NCBI RefSeq assembly: GCF_002113885.1
Contig: NW_018406397.1
Span: 2,795,716 to 2,859,715, forward strand
Direction of reading: 5' to 3'
From: Mizuhopecten yessoensis
Taxonomy: Eukaryota
Length of the DNA stretch: 64,000 bases
In this document: positions 3,997 through 64,000 of the stretch, piece after piece
Position numbering within the stretch: position 1 is the stretch's first letter
How the letters are laid out: each line of letters opens with the position of its first letter
The notes under the pieces: model-generated
What the model was told of the DNA's origin: nothing
Database searches by the model: none
What the model saw: the letters and a program-made list of their open reading frames with translations, nothing else
Position numbers and translations under genes: made by a program

Positions 3997-4395
3997 TGTG
4001 GCAGACTTTAATTGTACATAGAATGTTACAGTCGCCTTCTAGCTTCGAGCTAGAGGGAATTTCCCTTTAGCTCAGTGGTAGATCGTCTGACTAGGAACCT
4101 AGGGATCGCGGGTTTGATCCCTGGTAGAAACACACTTTTCTCTTTCCTCATATAAATGGTGTCAGTGGACCTCCCTGTGGTTACAGGGAGTTAAAACCTG
4201 GGTTGTGGTGTCAAGGGTGAACACATTTAAAAAGGGGGGTGAGTAGTATGGCAGATTTTAGTAGGATTACCACCGCAAGGCTGGCTTCGAGCTAGAGTGA
4301 ATTTCCCTTTAGCTCAGTGGTAGAGCATCTGACTAGGAACCTAGGGATCGCAGGTTCAATTCCTGTAAAAGCATACTATTCTCTTTGCTGTTACA
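3997..4395 (+). mobile_element. Full-length TRIM (non-autonomous LTR element) with tRNA-like sequence in both LTRs; family A, Helenus-type
   Basis: LTR1 3997-4154 (TGTGGCAG..), AA spacer, PBS TGGTGTCAGTGG at 4157 (tRNA-Leu-like), purine tract about 4229-4246, LTR2 4247-4395 (..CTGTTACA). LTR2 has an A box TAGCTCAGTGG (4310-4320) and a B box GGTTCAATTCC (4353-4363). Flanks are CCAG/CCAA. Confidence 0.85.
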
Positions 4396-4555
4396 CCAAC
4401 AGCACATTGACACCTTTGCACATGTATATGATGAGTGTTTGTCTGGGTCCATGTACATGTATTACTGTTATGATGATTTTTTTTTCTTTTTAATGGATGT
4501 CCAGCTAAAGATTTTTAAAGTTTCAAATATATATACATGCCACCCTGGTAAAATA

Positions 4556-4604
4556 CTAGCAGCTTCCTACTGACTTGGCTAGGGAGAATTTCTCTTTAGC
4601 TCAT
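4556..4604 (+). mobile_element. Truncated family A LTR fragment
   Basis: GCTAGGGAGAATTTCTCTTTAGCTCA matches the LTR segment leading into the A box. Confidence 0.55.
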
Positions 4605-5379
4605 TATGAGGCATTGAAAAAATAATGACCTCTATTACATACACTTGCGTGTAGCATTTGTATAGGTTTGAAAGGGGTAGTATTTATGTAATAGCATCAA
4701 GATTTAACATCACTTCGATGTGCAAATATGAAACAGAATACATGTACTCAAGTTGTGTATTTAATGTTATAAAAAATGTCAGATATTGTACATGTGCAGG
4801 TAAGGAATAGCATTGCGACTTGCTCAATGTAGCATTTTTCATGGGAGTTATTTCCCTTTGAACCTAAATATTTGAGTATTTGAGGTTAGTTGAACTCTAG
4901 TATATCAGTAACATACTGTACAGGGTACACAGTGTCTTAATTGACATGGGTGGCGCAGGGGGTAACACACTCACCTTTCACCAAGGCGATTATAGTTTGA
5001 TTCTCTGATTGGACACGAAAATGTATGGGGTCACCTGCCCAAACCCACAACCCACAGTGGTTAATAAAAGTTTGAATAAGCACACAATTGTGGTAAAATA
5101 AAATGAAGTTGATATAATTGTCATGTACCCATGCACCATCTGTACATTGCACAAAGCGTTATTTCTTGCTAAGTGGTAGAGCTCCTACAAGGAGGGCATG
5201 GTTTCTTTACAATATGTCTTTTTATAACAGACTGGTGCCACTAACCAGCCTTTGTTTCAATACCTTTATGTGTTTGGTAAGGTAATATCTGAGCCTGGAT
5301 TGTAACAGTGTTGTCACGGGGACAAAGGCTTGTCATGTGTAATGGATGCATATTGTACATAGTTCCAAAGTCACCTTAA

Positions 5380-5491
5380 CTTGCTTCAGCCAGGGGGAAT
5401 TTCTCTTTAGCTCAGAGCATCAGACTAGAAAGTCTGAGGTCACTGGTTTGATCCCCAGCAGTAGCACGTACGTATCACAGTGTGTGTTACA
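5380..5491 (+). mobile_element. Diverged tRNA-containing LTR related to family A
   Basis: GGAATTTCTCTTTAGCTCAGAGCATCAGACTAGAAAGTCTGAGGTCACTGGTTTGATCCCC, ending in GTTACA. Confidence 0.6.
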
Positions 5492-5802
5492 TCCTACCAC
5501 AATAATGTTAACATTAAGACCTCCGAACCAAAACCCACAAAACAATGTAATTGTAACATTACCTGTATATCCCTGAACTGCCTGGATCCAGTACAAGTTT
5601 CTTCATAAGTTTGTGCACAGACGCTGAGTGTTCAAATCTAATATGGCTTCCCTAATACAGCCAATCATTGTGTTTCTGTTTGCAGGGGCAATTAATAACA
5701 TGACAATGAGCTTGTGTATTGTCTTGTGAAAGGAAACATATCATTTTTTGTATGAAGAAGTGACAAATTAGTAACTTGTATGACTCAAATTATAAATATA
5801 TC

Positions 5803-5959
5803 TGTGGCAGATTTTAAGTGTACTAAGGATTACTGTCGCCTTCTAGCTTCACGCTAGAGGAACTTTCCCTTTAGCTCAGTGGTAAAGCATTCGGCTAGGA
5901 AGTCTAGGATTGCAGGTTCCAACCCTGGTGGAAAGCACACTACTCTCTTTCCTGTTACA
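5803..5959 (+). mobile_element. Solo LTR of TRIM family A with a 4-bp TSD (TATC)
   Basis: TGTGGCAG...CCTGTTACA, 157 bp, with A and B boxes inside; TATC at 5799-5802 and 5960-5963. Confidence 0.88.
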
Positions 5960-6159: not shown

Positions 6160-6330
6160 TCGTCAGATTCTGTTTCAATTTCAGAAGTTTCAAATCAAAT
6201 CCTAGTCAGGCCTATTGCATTTGTGTCTGAAACCAAATCTTGTTGTGATTCATAAGGCGATACCCAAACCTGGGTTGTAAATAGTGAAGTGTATAAAAAG
6301 ATTTGAAAAAGAGATCAGTTGTAGGTGACC
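6160..6330 (+). mobile_element. Degraded copy of TRIM family B (LTR end, PBS remnant, internal region)
   Basis: AAGGCGATACCCAAACCTGGGTTGTAAATAGTGA aligns with AAGGGGATACACAAACTTGGGTTGTCAATAGTGA in the 63-kb element. Confidence 0.6.
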
Positions 6331-10914: not shown

Positions 10915-12490
10915 AGTTAAATATTATATGCTACAATGTACTTAACACAATATACCTGGGATCTATGTTAGAGTTAAGGTTATATGCTACCTAACACATT
11001 ATCCCTGGGATCTATGTTAGAGTTAAGGTTATATGCTAACTAACACATTATTCCTGGGATCTATGTAAGAGTTAAGGTTATATTCTACCTAACACATTAT
11101 TCCTGGGATCTATGTAAGAGTTAAGGTTATATGCTACCTAACATATTATACATGGGATCAGTGTTAGATTTAAAGTTATATGCTACCTTACACATTATAC
11201 CTGGGATCAGTGTTAGAGTAAAGGTTATATGCTACCTAACACATTATTCCTGGGATCAGTGTTAGAGTTAAGGTTATATGCTACCTAACACATTATACCT
11301 GGGATCTATGTTAGAGTTAAGGTTATATGCTACGTAACATATTATAAATGGGATCAATGTTAGAGTTATAAAGTTATTTGCTACCTAACACATTATACCT
11401 GGGATCAGTGTTAGAGTTAAGGTTATATGCTACCTAACACATTATACCTGGGATCTATGTAAGAGTTGAGGTTATATGCTACCTAACACATTATACCTGG
11501 GAGCTATGTAAGAGTTAAGGTTATATGCTACCTAACACATTATCCCTGGGATCTATGTTAGAGTTAAGGTTATATGCTACGTAACATATTATACATGGGA
11601 TCAATGTTAGAGTTAAAGTTATATGCTACCTAACACATTATACCTGGGATCTATGTTAAGGTGATATGCTACCTAACACATTATACCTGGGATCTATGTA
11701 AGAGTTAAGGTTATATGCTACCTAACACATTATCCCTGGGATCTATGTTAAGGTGATATGCTACCTAACACATTATACCTGGGATCTATGTTAGAGTTAA
11801 GGTTATATGCTACGTAACATATTATACATGGGATCAATGGTAGAGTTAAAGTTATTTGCTACCTTACACATTATACCTGGGATCTATGTTAGAGTTAAGG
11901 TTATATGCTACCTAACATATTATACATGGGATCAGTGTTAGAGTTAAGGTTATATGCTACCTAACACATTGTACCTGGGATCTATGTTAGAGTTAAGGGT
12001 ATATGCTACCTAACACATTATACAGGGGATCTATGTTATAGTTAGGGTTATATGCTACCTAACACATTATTCCTGGGATCTGTGTTATAGTTAAGGTTAT
12101 ATGCTACCTAACACATTATACCTGTTTTTTGTGTTAGAGTTAAGGTTACATGCTATCTAACGCATTATACTTGTGATTTATATGTTAGAGTTAAGGTTAT
12201 ATGCTACCCAGCACATTAAACCTCGGATCTATGTTAGAGTTAAGGTTATGTGCTATCTAATGCATTATACCTGTGATTTATGTTAGAGTTAAGGTTATAT
12301 GCTATCTAACATATTAAACCTGTGATCTTTGTTAAAGTTAAGGTTGTATGCTTCCATATTCATGATACTTAGGATTCATGCTAGAGTTAAGGTTACATGT
12401 TACCTTAATTTGAATTGCTGTTCAAGATGCTACCTTACCCATTAAACCAGATATTTCCACTTGAGTTAAGGGCATATGCTACCTTACATA
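10915..12490. repeat. Tandem satellite, 49-bp unit, about 30 copies
   Basis: Unit GGGATCTATGTTAGAGTTAAGGTTATATGCTACCTAACACATTATACCT (GGG at 10958, 11007, ...); degenerates towards the right end. Confidence 0.95.
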
Positions 12491-21135: not shown

Positions 21136-24100
21136 TGGGACGTCGTAGGTTTGTGTGTACAGTGGGACGTCGTTAGTCTGGACACTTTGGTTTGTGTATA
21201 CATAAGGACGTCGTTAGACTGGACACTTTGGTTTGTGTATACAGTAGGTCGTCGTTAGACCGGACACTTTGGTTTGTGTATACAGTGGGACGTCGTTAGA
21301 CAGGACAATTTGGTTAATGTATATAGTAGGACGTCGTTAGACTGGACACTTTGGTTTGTGTATACATTAGGACGTCGTTAGACTGGACACTTTGGTTTGT
21401 GTATACAGTGGATCGTCGTTAGACAGGGCACTTTGGTTTCTGTATCCAGTGGGATTTCGTTAGACTGGACACTTTCGTTTATGTATACAGTGGGACGTCG
21501 TTAGACTGGACATTTTGGTTTATGTAAACAGTAGGATGTCTTAAGACTGGACACTTTGGTTTGTGTATACAGTGGGACGTCGTTAGACTGTACACTTCGA
21601 TTTGTGTATACAGTGGGACGTCGTTAGACAGGACACTTTGGTTTGTGTATACAGTGGATCGTCGTTAGACAGGACACTTTGGTTTATGTAAACAGTGGGA
21701 CGTCGTTAGACTGTACACTTCGATTTGTGTATACAGTGGGACGTCGTTAGACTGGACACTTTGGTTTATGTAAACAGTGGGACGTCGTTAGACTGGACAC
21801 TTTCGTTTATGTATACAGTAGGACGTCGTTAGACTGGACACTTTGGTTTATGTAAACAGTAGGATGTCTTAAGACTGGACACTTTGGTTTGTGTATATAT
21901 TGGGACGTCGTTAGTACGGACACTTTGGTTTGTGTATACATTAGGACGTCGTTAGACTGGACACTTTTGTTTGTGTATACAGTGGGACGTCTTTAGACTG
22001 GACACTTTTGTTTGTGTATATAGTGGGACGTCGTTAGACAGGACACTTTGGTTTGTGTATAGGACACTTTGGTTTGTGTATACAATGGGACGTCGTTAGA
22101 CTGGACACTTTGGTTTGTGTATACATTTGGACGGCGTTAGACAGGACACTTTGGTTTGTGTATACCGTGGGACGTCGTTAGACAGGACACTTTGGTTTGT
22201 GGATACAGTGGGACGTCGTTATACTGGACACTTTGGTTTGTGTATACAGGACTGGACACTTTGGTTTGTGTATACAGTAGGTCGTTTGTGTATACAGTGG
22301 GACGTCTTTAGACTGGACACTTTGGTTTGTGTAAACAGTAGGACGTCGTAAGACAAGACACTTTGGTTTGTGTATACATAAGGACGTCGTTAGACTGGAC
22401 ACTTTTGTTTGTGTATACAGTGGGACGTCGTCAGACAGGACACTTTGGTTTGTGTATACCGTGGGACGTCGTTAGACTGGACATTTTGGTTTATGTAAAC
22501 AGAAGGTCGTCGTTAGCCAGGACACTTTGGTTTGTGTATACAGTAGGTCGTTTGTGTATACAGTGGGACGTCTTTAGACTGGACACTTTGGTTTATGTAT
22601 ACAGTGGGATTTCGTTAGACTGTACACTTCGGTTTGTGTATACAGTGTGACGTCGTTAGACTGGGCACTTTGGATTGTGTATACAGTGGGACGTCGTTCG
22701 ACTGGACACTTTGGTTTGTGTATATATTGGGACGTCGTTAGTACGGACACTTTGGTTTGTGTATACATTAGGACGTCGTTAGACTGGACACTTTCGTTTA
22801 TGTATACAGTAGGACGTCGTTCGACTGGACACTTTGGTTTATGTATACAGTGGGATTTCGTTAGACTGTACACTTCGGTTTGTGTATCAGTGGGACGTCG
22901 TTAGACAGGAAACTTTGGTTTGTGTATAAAGTGGGACGTCGTTAGACAGGACACTTTGGTTTATGTAAACAGACGGTCGTCGTTAGACAGGACACTTTGG
23001 TTTGTGGATACAGTGGGACGTCGTTATACTGGACACTTTGGTTTGTGTATACAGTAGGTCGTTTGTGTATACAGTGGGACGTCTTTAGACTGGACACTTT
23101 TGTTTGTGTATACAGTGGTACGTCGTTATACAGTGGGATGTCGTTAGACTGGGACGTCGTTAGACTGGGCACTTTGATTTATGTATACAGTGGGACGTCG
23201 TTGGACTGGACACTTTGGTTTATGTAAACAGAAGGTCGTCGTTAGACAGGACACTTTGGTTTATGTATACAGTGGGATTTCGTTAGACTGTACACTTCGG
23301 TTTGTGTATACAGTGTGACGTCGTTAGACTGGGCACTTTGATTTATGTATACAGTGGGACGTCGTTATACTGGACACTTTGTTTTGTGTAAACAGTAGGA
23401 CGTCGTAAGACAAGGCACTTTGGTTTGTGTATACAGTAGGACGTCGTTAGACTGAACACTTTTGTTTGTGTATACAGTGGGACGTCGTTCGACTGGACAC
23501 TTTGGTTTGTGTATACATTGGGACATCGTTAGACTGGACACTTTGGTTTGTGTATACATTGGGACGTCGTTAGTACGGACACTTTGGTTTATGTATACAG
23601 TGGGATGTCGTTAGACTGTACACTTCGGTTTGTGTATACAGTGGGACGTCGTTAGACTGGGCACTTTGGTTTGTGTATACAGTGAGACGTCGTTAGACTG
23701 GGCACTTTGGTTTGTGTATATAGTGGGACGTCTTTAGACTGGACACTTTGGTTTGTGTATACAGTGGGATGTCGTAAGACAGGACATTTTTGTTTGTGTA
23801 TACAGTGGGACGTCGTCAGACAGGACACTTTGGTTTGTGTATACAGTGGGACGTCGTTAGACTGGACACTTTGGTTTGTGTATAGAGTGGGATGTCGTAA
23901 GACTGGCCACTTTGGTTTGTGTATACAGTAGGATGTTGTTAGACTGGACACTTTCGTTTATGTATACAGTGGGACGTCGTTAGACTGGTCACTTTGGTTT
24001 GTGTATAGAGTGGGATGTCGTAAGGCTGGCCACTTTGGTTTGTGTATACAGTGGGACGTCGTTAGACTGGACACTTTTGTTTGTGTATATAGTGGGACGA

Positions 24101-26058
24101 CTTTAGACAGGACACTTTGGTTTGTGTATACAGTGGGACGTCGTTAGACTGGACACTTTGGTTTGTGTATACAGTGGGATGTCGTAAGACTGGGCACTTT
24201 GGTTTGTGTATACAGTAAGATGTCGTTAGACTGGACACTTTCGTTTATGTATACAGTGGGACGTCGTTAGACTGGACACTTTGGTTTATGTAAACAGTAG
24301 GATGTCGTAAGACTGGACACTTTGGTTTGTGTATACAGTGGGACGTCGTTAGACTGGACACTTTGGTTTTTGTATACAGTGGGACATCGTTAGACAGGAC
24401 ACTTTGGTTTGTGTATACAGTGGGACGTTGTTATACTGGACACTTTGGTTTGTGTATACAGTGGAACGTCGTGAGACTAGACACTTTGGTTTGTGTAAAC
24501 AGTAGGACGTCGTAAGACAAGACACTTTGGTTTGTGTATACAGTGGGACGTCGTTAGACTGGACACTTTGGTTTGTGTATACAGTGGGACGGCGTTAGAC
24601 AGGACACTTTGGTTTGTGTATACAGTGGGACGTCGTTAGACTGGGCACTTTGGTTTTGTTTATACAGTGGGATGTCGTTAGACAGTACACTTTGGTTTGT
24701 GTATACAGTGGGACGTCGTTAGACTGGGCACTTTGTTTTCTGTATACAGTGGGACGTCGTTACACTGGTCACTTTGGTTTGTGTATACAGGGGGACGTCG
24801 TTAGACTGGGCCCTTTGGTTTTGTTTATACAGTGGGATGTCGTTAGACTGGACACTTTGGTTTGTGTAAACAGTAGGACGTCGTTAGACAAGACACTTTG
24901 TTTGTGTATACAGTGGGACGTCGTTAGACTGGACACTTTGGTTTGTGAATACAGTGGGACGTCGTTAGTACGGACACTTTGGGTTATGTATACAGTGGGA
25001 TGTCGTTAGACAGGACACTTTTGTTTGTGTATACAGGGGGACGTCGTTAGACAGGACACTTTGGCTTGTGTAAACAGTAGGACGCCGTTAGACAAGACAC
25101 TTTGTTTGTGTATACATTGGGACGTCGTTAGACTGGACATTTTGGTTTATGTAAACAGTAGGACGTCGTTAGACTGGACACTTTGGTTTATGTAAACAGT
25201 AGGATGTCGTAAGACTGGACACTTTTGTTTGTCTATACAGTGGGACGTCGTTATACTGGACACTTTGGTTTGTGTATACAGTGGGACGTCGTTAGACAGG
25301 ACTCTTTGGTTTGTGTATACAGGGGGACGTCGTTAGACTGGCCACTTTGGTTTGTGTAAACAGTAGGACGTCGTAAGACTGGACACTTTTGTTTGTCTAT
25401 ACAGTGGGACGTCGTTAGACTGGACACTTTGGTTTGTGTATACAGTGAGCGTCGTTATACTGGACACTTTGGTTTGTGTATACAGTAGGACGTCGTTTGA
25501 CTGAACACTTTTGTTTGTGTATACAGTGGTACGTCGTTAGACAGGACACTTTGGTTTGTGTAAACAGTAGGACGTCGTTAGACAGGACACTTTTGTTTAT
25601 GTATACAGTGGGACGTCGTTATACAGGACACTTTGGTTTGTGTATGCAGTGGGACGTCGTTAGTACGGACACTTTGGTGTATGTAAACAGTAGGTCGTTG
25701 TTAGACAGGACACTTTGGTTTATGTAAACAGAAGGTCGTCGTTAGACAGGACACTTTGGTTTATGTAAACAGTAGGTCGTTGTTGAACAGGACACTTTGG
25801 TTTATGTAAACAGAAGGTCGTCGTTAGACAGGACACTTTGGTTTAGGTAAACAGTAGGTCGTCGTTAGACTGGGCACTGTATACAGTGGGATGTCGTTAG
25901 ACTGGACACTTTGACTGGACACTTTGGTTTGTGTATACAGAAGGTCGTCGTTAGACAGGACACTTTGGTTTGTGTAAACAGTAGGACGTCGTTAGTACGG
26001 ACACTTTGGTTTATGTAAACAGTAGGACGTCGTTTGTCCGGACAGTTTGGTTTATGTG
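21136..26058. repeat. Tandem satellite, 41-bp unit, about 120 copies
   Basis: Unit GGGACGTCGTTAGACTGGACACTTTGGTTTGTGTATACAGT, head-to-tail with no spacers. Confidence 0.97.
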
Positions 26059-33509: not shown

Positions 33510-35838
33510 ATGTTACATCGCTTACAAATCTAACACTACACCATACAATATACCTTACAAAACGTACTTCACTTAATTACAACATCGCTTACAAAACGTA
33601 CTACACACAGTAACAACATCGCTTTCAAAACGTACTTCACACAGTAACAACATCGCTTACAAAACGTACTTCTCACTGTAACAATATCGCTTACAAAACG
33701 TACTTCACACAGTTTCAACATCGCTTACAAAACGTACTTCAAATAGTTACAACATCGCTTGCAAAACGTACTTCAAATAGTTACAACATCGCTTACAAAA
33801 CGTACTTCACACAGTTACAACATCGCTTACAAAACGTACTTCACACAGTTACAACTTCGCTTACAAAACGTACTTCAAACAGTTATAACATCACTTACAA
33901 AACGTACTTCAAACAGTTACAACATCGCTAACAAAACGTACTTCACAAAGTTACAACATCGCTTACAAAACGTACTTCAAACAGTTATAACATCACCTAC
34001 AAAACGTACTTCAAACAGTTACAACGTCACTTACAAAACGTACTTCACACAGTTACAACATCACTTACAAAACGTACTTCACACAATTAAAAAAAAAATC
34101 GCTTACAAAACGTACTTCACACAGTTACAACATCGCTTACAAAACGTACTTCACACAGTTACAACATCGCTTACAAAACGTACTTCACTCAGTTACAACA
34201 TCACTTACAAAACGTACTTCACACAATTAAAAAAATCGCTTACAAAACGTACTTCACACAGTTACAACGTCACTTACAAAACGTACTTCACTCAGTTACA
34301 ACATCGCTTACAAAACATAATTCACACAATTAAAAAAAATCGCTTGCAAAACGTACTTCACACAGTTACAACATCGCTTATAAAACATACTTCACACAGT
34401 TACAACATCACTCACAAAATGTACTTCACAATGTTACAACATCGCTCACAAAACGTACTTCTCATTGTTACAACAAAGCTTACAAAACGTACTTCACACA
34501 GTTACAACATCGCTTACAAAACATACTTCACACAATTAAAAAAATCGCTTACAAAACGTACTTCACTCAGTTACAACGTCACTTACAAAACGTACTTCAC
34601 TCAGTTACAACATCGCTTACAAAACATACTTCACACAATTAAAAAAAATCGCTTGCAAAACGTACTTCACACAGTTACAACATCGCTTACAAAACATACT
34701 TCACAAAGTTACAACATCGCTCACAAAACGTACTTCTCATTGTTACAACAAAGCTTACAAAACGTACTTCACAAAGTTACAACTTCGCTCACAAAACGTA
34801 CTTCTCATTGTTACAACATCGCTTACAAAACATACTTCACACAGTTACAACATCGCTTACAAAACGTACTTCACACAGTAACAACATCGCTCACAAAACG
34901 TACTTCTCATTGTTACAACAAAGCTTACAAAACGTACTTCACACAGTTACAACATCACTCACAAAATGTACTTCACAATGTTACAACATCGCTCACAAAA
35001 CGTACTTCTCATTGTTACAACATCACTTACAAAACGTACTTCACTCAGTTAAAACATCGCTTACAAAACATACTTCACACAATTAAAAAAATGCTTACAA
35101 AACGTACTTCACACAGCTAAAACAAAGCTTACAAAACGTACTTCACACAGTTACAACAAAGCTTACAAAACGTACTTCACACAGTTACAACATCGCTTAC
35201 AAAACATACTTCACTCAGTTACAACATCACTTACAAAACGTACTTCACAAAGTTACAACATCGCTTATAAAACGTACTTCACACAGTTACAACATCGTTT
35301 ACTAAACATACTCCGCACAATTACAACTTCGCTTACAAACGTACTTCACATAATTACAACATCGCTTACAAAACATACCTCACACAATAAAAACGTACTT
35401 CACATTGCTTTTAAAACTTACTTCACACAATTACAAATCGCTTACAAAACGTACTTCACACAGTTACAACAAAGCTTACAAAACGCATTTCACACAGATA
35501 GAACATCGCTTACAAAACGTTCTTCACAAAATTACAATATCGCTCACAAAACGTACTTCACACAGTTACAACATCGTTTACAAAACGTACGTCACACAAT
35601 TACAACATCGCTTACAAAACGTACTTCACACAATAAAAACGTACTTCACATTGCTTTTAAAACTTACTTCACACAATTACACATCGCTTACAAAACGTAC
35701 TTCACACAATTACAACAAAGCTTACACAACGCATTTCACACAATTACAACATCGCTTACAAAACGTACTTCACACAAATACAACAAAGCTTACAAAACGT
35801 ACTTCACACAATTACAACAACGCTTACAAAACGTACTT
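33510..35838. repeat. Tandem satellite, 34-bp unit, about 65 copies
   Basis: Unit TTACAACATCGCTTACAAAACGTACTTCACACAG (33781, 33815, ...). Confidence 0.96.
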
Positions 35839-60405: not shown

Positions 60406-62078
60406 GTCAGTGCTTTTCTTGGTGGATATAATTATATAACCAGTAATACTGTACAGAAAACCGGACCTCAGACACCATCTAGAAAAAGCTGACATGGTAG
60501 CTATGATACTGTCGTCAACTTTTATATCGGTCACGACCTGGTTTTTAATGGGGTTATCTGCATATTTAGGTTCAAGTTGAGGTTATCTGAGTAACGGAAT
60601 GTACAAACATTGATTCACAAATCGGTGATATGTGTGCATGTTATCAATAAATATTTTGCCAACCAAATTTTTGCCCACTGGCTTTTTGAATTTTAAAATT
60701 CACCATAGGTAGGTGAATCAACTGATGTACATGCATGTCTTTTTTTGTCCCATGTTGAGTTTCCCTTTTGTTCAAGGGGCTAAATGGGAAAAATAAAACG
60801 GAGCATATTTCCAGTTAGATAAAAGATAAACAATGACATTATCGTTATCATGTCTGTCTATACCTGCTGAAAAGATGCTAGGTCAATTATCTGTTTGATA
60901 AAAGGTGATCTAACCTTATCCAATCAATGTCCTATTTCATAATCATAATAATACTCATACAGGGTCATTATATAGGTCAGTGTTTGTCATTTTGACTTAT
61001 ACATTGTACATGTACATCTATCGGACTTAATTGAACCGCAGTACTATACATTCAGTGATACTAAAGGTCATTTTCTATGGCCTACACAAATCAAATGTGG
61101 AGTAAGATTATAACACCCACGACTGAAATACTGAAAATATTTCTACAAAATCATTATTTGTTCGATTTATTATTGTTGGGTTGTTATGATTGCAGTGCAT
61201 TTCATAAATGTTCTATGTGAATGAAAATATAGCAAAAATTGGATGGTTTTGAACAAAACTGTGCCTGTCCTTCCATACTTTATTTTCTTGAAGTTGACTT
61301 TGCACTGTCAAGTCACTGTCTCTAAAATAGAATGGGGAATGGGGGTTAATAATACATTGCATTGCCCTTTTTGAACAACCCGTGTTTATTTGGATGGTAA
61401 ATAGTTTTAGGTAAATATCCTACATGAAAAATGACACTAGGATTCTAAAATCCTAAATGTCTACCTGTCAAGGTCAAGGTCACCGATCATGATACTACAA
61501 TAAAACAGAGTGATACACTGTCAAAACTACATTTTACGGCCCTTTCTGACTGTTCATTTTGGTTGTACCTGGTGGATATATTAACGCCATATTACCCGGA
61601 GTCTCAAATCCAAGATAGCCACCATGCGTTACTTCTAAGACCTCGATCACACATTCAGGACTTTTACTGCCGTCCTTGATAGGACCATTCCCGATTAAAA
61701 TTTGTCAACAGTCTGATCAAGATCCTGTGATTCGTGACGGGATATTCACAAATTTGTAAAAACATTTATTTAACCATAACAACAATCAGATATTGTTCAG
61801 GAAGCGTCCCTATTCAGCAGTTTCAAGTTGAATTTGTCCCAATTCTCACGTTCTTACTCAGAATCCGATCCGGTTTGTTATCTTCCACATGGAAAAAAAC
61901 GATCGAACCTGTCCCGACAACATCCAGATTCTTCCGAATGCGATCCGACAGGGATCAGACAGTGACCAGACAGTGAACCGACGCTGATGGAAGACATCTG
62001 GACTCAATCAGCAGGAAATGGCAATGAAAAATTTCTCCAAATCATACCTGTTCATCACAACAGCATCCCGATCCACAG

Positions 62079-62342
62079 GGACTGTATTCATGAAACTGTT
62101 CTCATGCTCAAGCATGGATTCTGTGCTCAAACCTACTTTCTTGTAACTCGCTTAAATCATGTCAAACGGTCAAAAAGTCAAATGTAAACATTGAAAACAG
62201 TTGTCGGCTTGTAGTCTCTTCAATGTTTTTCTAAATCATTGAAAAAATAAGATTTGTTTATGAATTTATAAGTAGAACAAGAAATTCGGCTTGAGCACAA
62301 ATTCCATACTTGAGCATGAGAACGGTATCATGAATACGGGCC
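62079..62342. mobile_element. Harbinger-like MITE with a 3-bp TSD (CAG)
   Basis: CAG-GGACTGTATTCATGAAACTGTTCTCATGCTCAAG / CTTGAGCATGAGAACGGTATCATGAATACGGGCC-CAG. Confidence 0.82.
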
Positions 62343-62814
62343 CAGAAAACACAGGACAATGTCACGATTTTGATCCGATACAGCAGAATCTGTCACATTT
62401 AGTCACGATTGTAATCCCACTAGATAAAATCGGCTGAGTTTTCAGAATTTTACGGGATGCACCTTACTGTCAGGAGTGCTTGACCGACCTCTCTGGACCT
62501 TTCCCGATCCGTAGGACTCTGTTACGTACGTATACGACTGCGTTCAGACACTGATAGGACATTCAAGACCATTGAGGATAGTATTCCAACTTTCTCACTT
62601 TTATTGTCGTTGCACTGTCTAATCTCAAATGGGAGCCATAATCGGCGCTGCATTATTGGCTGAGATATATACTTATATTTATGAATCACACTTGTTGGCC
62701 CAAATGTTAATGTAGGAGGTTTTAACTCATTCACCTCTACATAATTTATTGAACTGGACTTGCCTAGTCTTTGATTTGGTAAGGTTCAAATGTGATTTTA
62801 GGGGTAAATTGATT

Positions 62815-62958
62815 AATGTGGGATAAAACCAGAGTACCCAGAGAAAACCCACATGGTTAGGCAGGTGACCCTATACCTTTTCACATCCAATCAGGGAATT
62901 AAACTATGACCATCTAGGTTAAAGGCGAGTGCACTATCCAATGTCCCACCTGACCACC
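62815..62958 (-). mobile_element. tRNA-derived SINE (V-like body)
   Basis: Homologous to 1420-1593. Confidence 0.65.
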
Positions 62959-63096
62959 ATACTTTGAGGTAAATGGTATTCAGTGCAGTGAACAAGAACA
63001 TATCCCATCCCATGAAACAAGTTGGCTGCTATGGCTTGTGATTGGCCGAGATCTTTCAGGTTATTACTACTGTTAAGGCTAACACAATGTCATGTG

Positions 63097-63630
63097 TGTA
63101 ATAGGAGTGGAAAAAGGCACGACGTTCTACCAATTGGAGCTACCTGGTTGCTGACTAAATTCCTCCCCCGGTTTTCTAAGTCTTTGTCCCTGAAGCTCTC
63201 ACTATTGACAACCCAAGTTTGTGTATCCCCTTGCCAAGTATTCACCCAGTACTTGTAACAAGGCTTGGTCACAGGCACCAAATGTAATAGGAGTGGAAAA
63301 ATGCATGGCCAGACTGGGGTTTGAAACTGGGACCTTCTGAACTTTAGTTGGACACTCTACCAATCGAGCTACCTTGTTGCCGACTTCATTCCTCCCCCAG
63401 TTTTCAAAGTCTTTGTCCCTGAAGATCTCACTATTGACAACCCAAGTTTGTGTATCCCCTTGCCAAGTATTCACCCAGTACTTGTAACAAGGGTTGGTCA
63501 CAAGAACCAAATGTAATAGGAGTGGAAAAATGCATGGCCAGACCGGGATTGGAGCCCGAGCCCCTCCAAACTATAGACAGACGCTCTACCAATTGAGCTC
63601 CAACGATTGACCCAGTCCAGTTCTGTTTCA
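63097..63630 (-). mobile_element. Tandem-array TRIM (LTR-internal-LTR-internal-LTR) with tRNA-like LTRs; family B
   Basis: On the minus strand each LTR ends CCTATTACA (63512, 63283, 63097). The first two are followed by TT, a PBS TGGTGCCTGTGACC (tRNA-His-like), a ~120-bp internal region and the purine tract GGGGGAGGAA. LTRs contain AGCTC(G/A)ATTGGTAGAG. Period is 229 bp. Confidence 0.82.
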
Positions 63631-64000
63631 CACGTAGAACATCTAGAAGAAAACTGAAATGGCAAAGAGAATATTGTCAGATTTTTAGCTTACATATTCT
63701 ATGTAAAGTCTTTGTCTCTAATCAAGAGGCAATTTTGTTTTCAAATTTTAAATTCAGGGAGAATTTGCTGCCTATTCTGCCAATCGATAAACCCTAAAGT
63801 GTATGTAATTGCCATAGCAGGGTCATGAGTCATCAAAATGTTTCAACCTTAATCCCTATAAGCATGTTAAGCTGTATGTTATAAAGGTATGAGTTTTGTG
63901 ACAACGCCAGATGGGAGGATCAGGTACAGGTACATTGCTGTACAAAGCTGTAGGTCTACTGTAACAGTTGTTTGTTATAGGGAGAACACAAGTCAGTGAC

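What the first reader, a model, noticed from the sequence alone, without database searches (positions are those of the whole stretch)
63097..63630. Tandem three-LTR TRIM with tRNA-like LTRs and a tRNA-His-like primer site (family B)
Seen: LTR-I-LTR-I-LTR on the minus strand with near-identical internal regions but unequal LTRs. The 5' LTR has a different 5' end and the 3' LTR has lost the middle of the tRNA-like part; no TSD is evident. The PBS matches the complement of the tRNA-His 3' end (TGGTGCCGTGAC) with one extra base. Known: tandem arrays occur in Cassandra and other TRIMs. Inference: Pol III read-through or recombination between related families builds multimers, a possible route from TRIM to tRNA-containing satellite.
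Basis: partly seen in the sequence, partly recalled or inferred. Interest (0 to 1): 0.7.

Follow-up and report, generated by a model that had tools for sequence, protein, structure and literature searches.

The report
Locally duplicated tRNA-bearing mini retrotransposon
This is an old, decayed copy of a tiny gene-less jumping element of the published Helenus type, with a tRNA look-alike in its end repeats, whose doubled form likely arose by uneven DNA crossover at this spot long after it landed; its relatives in the same genome carry binding sites matching three different tRNA primers behind one shared end repeat.

Summary
Real, and a known kind. Window 63097-63630 (minus) is LTR-I-LTR-I-LTR of a Helenus TRIM (Kojima 2024): tRNA-like LTR close to the scallop family Helenus-2_PeMa, His-type primer site, 4-bp TSDs in dispersed copies (10 of 27 exact, 0.5 expected). 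The two internal regions share 9 rare substitutions (maximum 4 in 1225 unrelated pairs), and a diagnostic 31-mer occurs nowhere else. In other arrays the middle LTR is last-LTR-like at its 5' end and first-LTR-like at its 3' end (17/7 versus 2/16 sites). That points to unequal crossover at the locus, not Pol III read-through or recombination between families. Arrays are rare and short (at most five LTRs found). Side result of more interest: the same LTR carries His-, Arg(ACG)- and Lys-type primer sites; His and Arg share one internal body; six loci show a Helenus LTR followed by a perfect 16-20 nt tRNA-His copy, one running into Gypsy RT. The scan noted Helenus before in other genomes (145 notes), none on look-alike DNA.

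The parts
63512..63630 (-). LTR1 (5' LTR), TG...CA, normal family 5' end, private 9-nt deletion, B box with two core substitutions, T5 run in its last 32 nt
63543..63599 (-). tRNA-like segment of LTR1 (A box to T arm); Rfam tRNA 22.1 bits, E 0.067, below the gathering score; a young relative of the LTR scores 47 bits
63389..63511 (-). Internal region I1 (123 nt), non-coding
63495..63509 (-). Primer-binding site 1, His type with family-wide extra T plus two private substitutions
63389..63398 (-). Polypurine tract 1
63283..63388 (-). LTR2 (middle): carries the 22-nt 5' deletion of LTR3; last 32 nt identical to LTR1; B box altered
63160..63282 (-). Internal region I2 (123 nt), 117/123 identical to I1, 9 shared rare substitutions
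63266..63280 (-). Primer-binding site 2: pairs 14 nt with the 3' end of this genome's tRNA-His(GTG) plus CCA, one bulged T
63160..63169 (-). Polypurine tract 2
63097..63159 (-). LTR3 (3' LTR): 22-nt 5' deletion and 44-nt deletion removing the B box
63631..63634 (-). 5' flank CGTG; 3' flank (63096-63093) reads CACA, then TG: no exact TSD, possibly a decayed one
   Evidence: decayed reading is inference

Best explanation
It is an old, decayed copy of a His-primed Helenus TRIM whose internal region and one LTR were likely duplicated in place by unequal DNA crossover between its own two LTRs, long after insertion. Steps. (1) Shown: gene-less LTR-PBS-I-PPT-LTR anatomy, tRNA-like LTR, dispersed family with 4-bp TSDs. 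(2) Inferred, following Kojima 2024: the family was copied from an RNA likely made by Pol III from the tRNA-like A/B boxes, primed by tRNA-His and integrated by a Gypsy partner's RT and integrase. (3) Inferred: one ordinary two-LTR copy inserted here and aged; its internal region gained about 9 private substitutions and its 3' LTR lost 22 nt. (4) Inferred: the 3' LTR of one chromatid or homologue paired with the 5' LTR of the other and crossed over in the last third of the LTR (or an excised one-LTR circle recombined back into the same locus), giving a middle LTR with the 5' part of LTR3 and the 3' end of LTR1. (5) Shown as sequence, timing inferred: 6 later I1/I2 differences and a 44-nt deletion in LTR3. 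With all three B boxes damaged or lost and the first primer site mutated, the array is likely dead.
For: I1/I2 95% identical but at most 85% to any of 55 other internal regions; 9 shared rare substitutions against mean 0.36, maximum 4 in 1225 unrelated pairs. A diagnostic 31-mer at up to 3 mismatches occurs only twice in the genome, both in this array, so no source subfamily exists in the assembly. LTR2 and LTR3 share the 22-nt deletion that LTR1 lacks; reverse transcription copies U3 of the 3' LTR to the 5' LTR (established mechanism; PMC10886601 introduction), so an integrated multimer would have it in LTR1 too. LTR1/LTR2 differ at 21 sites up to position 96 and at none in the last 32 nt; both informative sites there follow LTR1. 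Same polarity elsewhere: first middle LTR of 4 arrays (L050, L031, L202, L204) matches the last LTR at 17 of 24 sites in positions 1-50 and the first LTR at 16 of 18 sites from position 90 (Fisher p 1.4e-4); with the window and L208, whose deletions blur the alignment, 33/44 and 20/22. TSD with at most 1 mismatch at 5 of 7 arrays (L050, L202, L204, L206, L208). Family TSD: 10 of 27 exact, 21 of 27 within 1 mismatch, shuffled 0.5 and 3.6; 0 of 27 at 3, 5 or 6 bp. Median LTR-LTR identity in 17 single copies 0.805: the His-type family is old.
Against: LTR2 and LTR3 are only 85% alike over 61 shared positions, less than I1/I2 (95%) and equal to LTR1/LTR3 (85% over 53); the window's own polarity rests on one deletion, 32 identical bases and 2 sites. 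Deletions of 23-26 nt with other breakpoints recur in this part of the LTR (L022, L026, L029), so the spot is deletion-prone. No TSD confirms that both ends belong to one insertion. Sites within an array are not independent, so the p values overstate; in L031 the 5' part leans the other way (3 versus 4) and in L204 it is tied. L031 starts with a 9-nt PPT remnant, not at an LTR end. No one-unit allele of this locus was seen in the two DNA runs laid. A lost or unassembled source element cannot be excluded.
Confidence: 0.8

Rival explanations
1. The multimer was made during reverse transcription (template switch between two copies of one source RNA, or a read-through multimeric RNA) and integrated as one piece.
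For: Proposed for Cassandra and Triticeae elements (PMC7215508, PMC4079214; passages). It would also give I1 close to I2. Every Pol III genomic RNA must read through the T run in the 5' LTR (62 of 73 LTRs have T4 or longer in the last 32 nt), so read-through is plausible in this family. Template jumps do occur here: L176, L180, L188, L190.
Against: Predicts identical terminal LTRs at insertion and no polarity; LTR1 lacks the U3 deletion of LTR2/LTR3 and polarity is strong. No source copy with the private variants. Read-through of a single copy runs into flanking DNA, not into another unit, so it cannot start an array (inference).
Confidence: 0.1
2. Two neighbouring, independently inserted copies (possibly of related subfamilies) recombined between the 3' LTR of one and the 5' LTR of the other, deleting the DNA between them; hence no TSD.
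For: No TSD in the window; the model of Yin et al. for TSD-less three-LTR Cassandra (PMC4079214); neighbouring copies exist (L033, L034, L147).
Against: Predicts unrelated internal regions (about 81%, few shared rare sites) and the opposite polarity (middle LTR first-like at its 5' end). Observed 95%, 9 shared rare sites, and 5'-last/3'-first polarity.
Confidence: 0.05
3. Non-homologous local tandem duplication (replication slippage or microhomology repair) of a 229-nt stretch that only happens to start and end inside LTRs.
For: The genome does make off-phase tandem repeats from pieces of this element: a 39-nt unit from flank plus LTR start (L010) and a unit of about 55 nt from LTR end plus PBS (L036).
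Against: The unit is exactly I plus one LTR, in LTR register, as in six other arrays; the outcome is that of exchange in the LTR homology. It cannot be told from slippage using the same homology.
Confidence: 0.04
4. Assembly artefact.
For: Fragmented assembly (82,659 contigs).
Against: Units differ by 12%; contigs of runs X1 and X8 cover both junctions with 0 differences.
Confidence: 0.01

Closest known systems
Helenus (TRIMp3), Kojima 2024, PMC10886601; nearest LTR: Helenus-2_PeMa-LTR and Helenus-1_ArIr-LTR (scallops). Seen: main text parts 1-5 of 6, supplement parts 5, 6, 7, 10 of 11, three term searches of the supplement.
   Same: Short gene-less LTR element, tRNA-like A/B-box segment in the LTR, PBS and PPT, 4-bp TSD, TGT...ACA ends. 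Two window motifs of 13 and 16 nt each occur once in the supplement, both in Helenus-2_PeMa-LTR; by eye about 85% identity between that LTR and natural copies here. His priming, with one-base bulges in 7 bivalve families, is in Fig. S2C. Tandem arrays are mentioned for LTR-11_DR.
   Different: Helenus-2_PeMa and -1_ArIr have a Lys-type site and an internal region of about 90 nt; this element has a 123-nt His-type region resembling Helenus-2C_CGi-I and Helenus-4_PeMa-I by eye, with the bulge at a third position. No bivalve family that I read in the supplement has this LTR plus this internal region, and none has an Arg(ACG) site ('tggcgagc' 0 hits; Fig. S2C). Repbase itself could not be searched.
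Tandemly arrayed TRIMs (TA-TRIM; Gao et al. 2016, PMC4717578) and Cassandra arrays (Yin et al. 2014, PMC4079214; Kalendar et al. 2020, PMC7215508). Seen: passages.
   Same: L3I2 is the commonest array form (63 of 93 in maize; 13% of intact pear Cassandra); unequal crossover, inter-element recombination and template switching are the proposed routes.
   Different: Those are plant elements with 5-bp TSDs and, for Cassandra, a 5S promoter; arrays here are rarer (1 junction per 59 internal regions by matched patterns).
biv-TRIM (Satovic et al. 2019, PMC6934838). Seen: passages.
   Same: Bivalve TRIM forming LTR(n)-I(n-1) arrays, up to 58 repeats: the TRIM-to-long-array route is already on record in bivalves.
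   Different: biv-TRIM has no identifiable PBS and no tRNA-like LTR was reported in the passages read; I did not compare sequences.
Ty1/Ty3 plus-strand strong-stop DNA (review PMC5371799; PMC7472051). Seen: passages.
   Same: In Ty1 and Ty3 the PBS is inherited from the element, not from the tRNA, and tRNA-copying strong-stop DNA is a dead-end product. This explains a fixed bulge (T in 59 of 59 sites) and the rare LTR-plus-tRNA-copy insertions seen here.
   Different: Shown in yeast; here it is only read from fossil sequence.

Membership tests
Helenus (TRIMp3) | Non-coding LTR element under about 1 kb with two direct LTRs | tested here: met
   Single unit about 128+123+128 nt; 54 of 57 chains with an internal region are single-I
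Helenus (TRIMp3) | tRNA-derived segment with A and B boxes inside the LTR | tested here: met
   Rfam tRNA 22.1 bits (E 0.067) in LTR1, 47 bits (E 3.9e-9) in a young relative's LTR; A box exact in 29 of 70 and B box GTTCRANYC in 44 of 70 family LTRs; boxes damaged in the window copy
Helenus (TRIMp3) | PBS complementary to a tRNA 3' end just behind the 5' LTR | tested here: met
   14-nt pairing with own tRNA-His(GTG), one bulge
Helenus (TRIMp3) | PPT just before the 3' LTR | tested here: met
Helenus (TRIMp3) | 4-bp TSD in animals | tested here: met
   Family: 10 of 27 exact, 21 of 27 within one mismatch. This copy: no exact TSD. Arg-type copies: 0 of 6 exact, 3 of 6 within one mismatch
Helenus (TRIMp3) | tRNA-like part is not a functional tRNA | tested here: met
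   ARAGORN finds no tRNA in the window; folding z-scores -0.22 and 0.48 against -2.35 for the real tRNA-His
Helenus (TRIMp3) | Transcription by RNA polymerase III | not testable with these tools
   Untested in the founding paper too; no raw RNA reads were offered
Helenus (TRIMp3) | Mobilisation by a Gypsy partner using the same primer | tested here: inconclusive
   His-primed Gypsy-like elements exist (L175/L197 with capsid-like ORF, Pfam E 9e-4, below cut-off; L199 young internally deleted element with TSD, same PPT end and TGT...ACA); a Helenus-type LTR runs through an 18-nt tRNA-His copy into RT and integrase pieces at L198, but that LTR is of the other family. No intact partner found
TA-TRIM | Three or more LTRs alternating with internal regions, ends at LTR termini | tested here: met
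Cassandra / Ajax | 5S rRNA-derived segment in the LTR | tested here: not met
   Rfam scan of 62900-63800 at E up to 10 gives only tRNA
Satellite DNA | Long homogeneous array of many units | tested here: not met
   Two units here; longest relative found L5I4; long arrays may be collapsed in this assembly

The most novel reading that the evidence does not exclude
One Helenus LTR is a primer-switching chassis caught in the act: in this genome it is joined to His-, Arg(ACG)- and Lys-type primer sites, the His and Arg forms sharing one internal body, and rare fossils show the tRNA primer's last 16-20 bases copied into DNA and rejoined to Helenus or Gypsy sequence. Such strong-stop jumps after mis-priming would be the missing mechanism by which these parasites change primer tRNA and helper, and the recurrent one-base bulge in His sites, at three different positions in three families, would be a selected feature (for example escape from 3' tRNA fragments).
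Probability: 0.4. Interest if true: 0.6.

Novelty: new member of a known kind. Interest (0 to 1): 0.36.

Why it matters
The array itself is ordinary: a new, dead member of a kind described in 2024, in an arrangement common among TRIMs. Two by-products have some value. First, the polarity of the middle LTR separates the three published models of TRIM tandemisation and here favours duplication in place, which argues against RNA multimers as the engine. Second, Kojima 2024 leaves open how Helenus changes its primer tRNA; this genome holds one LTR with three primer sites and fossils of primer copying, which makes that question testable on existing sequence.

Tried and rejected
Other subfamily for the 5' LTR: rejected, it is the normal form. 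A non-His tRNA that would pair without the bulge: patterns for such a 3' end gave no ARAGORN tRNA (8 hits, 5 scanned, 0 tRNA, 27 hits, 12 loci scanned, all tRNAs found were Arg). One search had the spacing of a His tRNA with one extra base, not of a normal tRNA; one search was swamped by 2027 hits of an unrelated repeat. Arg-primed autonomous partner: no perfect 16-nt Arg site among 43 matches; shorter sites were not searched. Intact His-primed Gypsy: L197 and L198 are decayed, no second LTR found in about 9 kb; L199/L200 lack RT. Expression: no RNA holder listed on record; contigs of two runs guessed to be RNA were laid and say nothing on transcription, start, end or multimers. One search crashed half way and was redone. 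Paper searches: Helenus+TRIM+tRNA+LTR 5 papers, TRIMp3 one relevant paper, primer-switch terms, strong-stop terms; none of the listed titles or abstracts treats Helenus arrays or primer switching beyond the founding paper, and I did not open the other three hits. A numerical alignment to the published Helenus sequences was left out; that comparison is by eye and by motif search only. Supplement parts 1-4, 8, 9 and 11 were only term-searched.

Full report
Observation. The minus strand of 63097-63630 reads LTR1 (119 nt), I1 (123), LTR2 (106), I2 (123), LTR3 (63); period 229 nt at 88%. Each LTR ends in the same ...TTACA, each I starts with a primer site and ends in a purine tract. ARAGORN finds no tRNA in the window; Rfam gives a weak tRNA match in LTR1 (22.1 bits, E 0.067). 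Contigs of DNA runs X1 and X8, from two studies, cover both junctions without a difference, so the array is genomic.

Identity. A paper search gave Kojima 2024 (text read): Helenus are TRIMs with tRNA-like LTRs, 51 families in pteriomorph bivalves, 4-bp TSDs in animals, primers Lys, His, Ile, Pro, Glu or Ser in bivalves, Gypsy partners inferred, tandem arrays noted in zebrafish LTR-11_DR. In its supplement two window motifs fall in Helenus-2_PeMa-LTR only, and by eye that LTR and Helenus-1_ArIr-LTR are about 85% like natural copies here. Those two families have a Lys site and a shorter internal region, so the His-type combination is not among the bivalve consensus sequences that I read.

The family in the genome. 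The unit gave 1231 candidates, 40 scored, 54 matches, best outside the window 84-88% over short parts and 70-78% over the whole gapped unit. Of 61 loci, 6 duplicates were dropped; 57 chains held an internal region: 54 single, 2 double (one is the window), 1 triple. Among 27 copies with both TG and CA ends, 10 have an exact 4-bp TSD and 21 are within one mismatch (shuffled means 0.5 and 3.6; none at 3, 5 or 6 bp). The two LTRs of 17 single copies are a median 80.5% alike: the His-type family is old. Matched exact patterns found 59 internal regions (PBS...PPT) against 1 tandem junction (PPT...PBS); 0 of 24 Arg-type chains were arrays. A looser junction pattern gave 10 hits in 7 arrays, 3 His-type and 4 Lys-type, the longest L5I4 at 97-100% identity.

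How the array arose. Aligned with 63 other LTRs, LTR1 has the normal 5' end and a private 9-nt gap; LTR2 and LTR3 share a gap of about 22 nt after the PPT; LTR3 has a further 44-nt gap. I1 and I2 share 9 substitutions seen in at most 15% of 50 other internal regions; unrelated pairs share 0.36 on average and at most 4 of 1225 pairs. A 31-mer holding several of these occurs only at I1 and I2, even at 3 mismatches. So the units descend from one already aged copy. Three published routes make different predictions (PMC4079214, PMC7215508; passages; the predictions are my inference). Recombination between two neighbours: unrelated I regions, middle LTR first-like at its 5' end. Integration of a multimeric cDNA: terminal LTRs identical, no polarity. 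Unequal exchange between the element's own LTRs: related I regions, TSD kept, middle LTR last-like at 5' and first-like at 3'. In the window LTR2 has LTR3's deletion and is identical to LTR1 over the last 32 nt. In four other arrays with clean alignments the first middle LTR follows the last LTR at 17 of 24 sites in positions 1-50 and the first LTR at 16 of 18 sites from position 90 (p 1.4e-4); all six arrays give 33 of 44 and 20 of 22, but the window and L208 have alignment noise around deletions; L206 and L211 were left out as incomplete. Five of seven arrays with readable ends keep a TSD within one mismatch (L202 and L206 exact; L050, L204, L208 one mismatch); the window and L031 do not. 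Against: LTR2/LTR3 are only 85% alike over 61 nt, L031's 5' part leans the other way, sites are not independent, and L031 begins with a PPT remnant. Nine shared against about three private changes per unit puts the duplication late in the copy's life (inference).

Is it active? Unlikely. B boxes: two core changes in LTR1, one in LTR2, deleted in LTR3; first primer site mutated. RNA could not be tested. One puzzle for the whole kind: 62 of 73 LTRs have a run of four or more T between the tRNA-like part and the PBS, which would stop Pol III before the primer site unless it leaks (established Pol III termination rule; leak untested).

Primer sites. Fourteen loci end like tRNA-His; the 8 scanned are tRNA-His(GTG). 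Their 3' end plus CCA pairs 14 nt with the family site with one bulged T, and T stands there in 59 of 59 matches. Kojima's Fig. S2C shows one-base bulges in seven bivalve His sites at two other positions. A fixed bulge fits Ty1/Ty3-type inheritance, in which the PBS is copied from the element and not from the tRNA (PMC5371799, PMC7472051; passages). About 27 of the 100 listed LTR-I junctions (of 200; counted by eye) carry a different site. I predicted the matching tRNA end; it occurs 18 times, and the 7 such loci scanned are tRNA-Arg(ACG), pairing 14 of 14. There are 115 Arg-type junctions at up to one mismatch, with the same LTR and the same internal body: identity beyond the PBS is 0.795 between Arg and the main His type, 0.797 within Arg. 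The same LTR (up to 93% to His-type LTRs) also flanks an 88-nt Lys-type region like Helenus-2_PeMa-I, in young arrays (Lys by Fig. S2C, not checked against own tRNA genes). No Arg(ACG) site is in the Helenus supplement.

Primer copies and partner. A search for perfect 16-nt His or Arg sites gave 43 matches, 30 fetched, 21 perfect His, with match lengths peaking at 18-19 nt. Six follow a Helenus-type LTR whose regular site is bulged, then jump: into host DNA (L170, this family), to the end of the internal region (L180, L190), to the LTR end (L182), into an inverted LTR of this family (L188), or into Gypsy RT and integrase pieces (L176/L198; Pfam RVT_1 E 3.8e-14, Integrase_H2C2 E 5.2e-18). L180 and L182 have 4-bp TSDs by eye. 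These read as integrated plus-strand strong-stop DNAs (inference); they include the non-encoded CCA and so support priming by mature tRNA-His. A young His-primed, internally deleted element with a protease-like piece, 98% identical LTRs, a 4-bp TSD and the same PPT end (L199) shows that a compatible Gypsy-like lineage was recently active. No intact partner was found.

Verdict. Observation confirmed; interpretation partly supported. New member of a known kind (Helenus, tandemly arrayed). Best mechanism for the array: unequal exchange in place (0.8). Interest 0.36, carried mostly by the primer-switch side result.

Noticed in passing
G000, (loci L137-L166, L202-L211): The same LTR carries His-type, Arg(ACG)-type and Lys-type primer sites; His and Arg types share the internal body; the Lys type has young copies and arrays.
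   Followed up: partly
L170, L176/L198, L180, L182, L188, L190: Helenus-type LTR followed by a perfect 16-20 nt copy of the tRNA-His 3' end, then a jump; L198 continues into Gypsy RT and integrase pieces, L188 into an inverted LTR of another Helenus family.
   Followed up: partly
window 3997-4395 (+), 5800-5959 (+), 5352-5490 (+), 4549-4640 (+): Other Helenus copies in the window: a full LTR-I-LTR and solo LTRs resembling Helenus-2_MiYe, and an internally deleted solo LTR resembling Helenus-1_MiYe (by eye against the supplement).
   Followed up: partly
window 5233-5330 and 6254-6287 (+): Decayed fragments of this family's internal region.
   Followed up: no
L010:1871-2329 and L036:1635-2765: Minisatellites made from pieces of this element: about 12 copies of a 39-nt unit (flank plus LTR start) and at least 10 copies of a unit of about 55 nt (LTR end plus PBS start); neither includes the tRNA-like part.
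   Followed up: partly
L199 (G000:C5485), L200 (C262), L201 (C2254): His-primed LTR element of about 3.2 kb with 630-nt LTRs 98% identical, 4-bp TSD and only a protease-like remnant inside: a young non-autonomous Gypsy-like derivative.
   Followed up: partly
G000, (L072-L101): 2027 matches to a B-box-like motif ending like tRNA-His but one base short; not tRNA genes by ARAGORN (4 scanned); probably a high-copy tRNA-derived SINE.
   Followed up: no
window 10939-12405, 21148-26057, 33554-35838: Long satellites or minisatellites of 49, 41 and 34 nt units (30, about 120 and 66 copies).
   Followed up: no
window 62078-62144 and 62277-62343: 67-nt inverted repeat, 85% complementary, 132 nt apart: MITE-like.
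   Followed up: no
L031 (G000:C5570:78790): The four-LTR array begins with a 9-nt PPT remnant before its first LTR and has no TSD: probably a longer array that lost its 5' end.
   Followed up: partly
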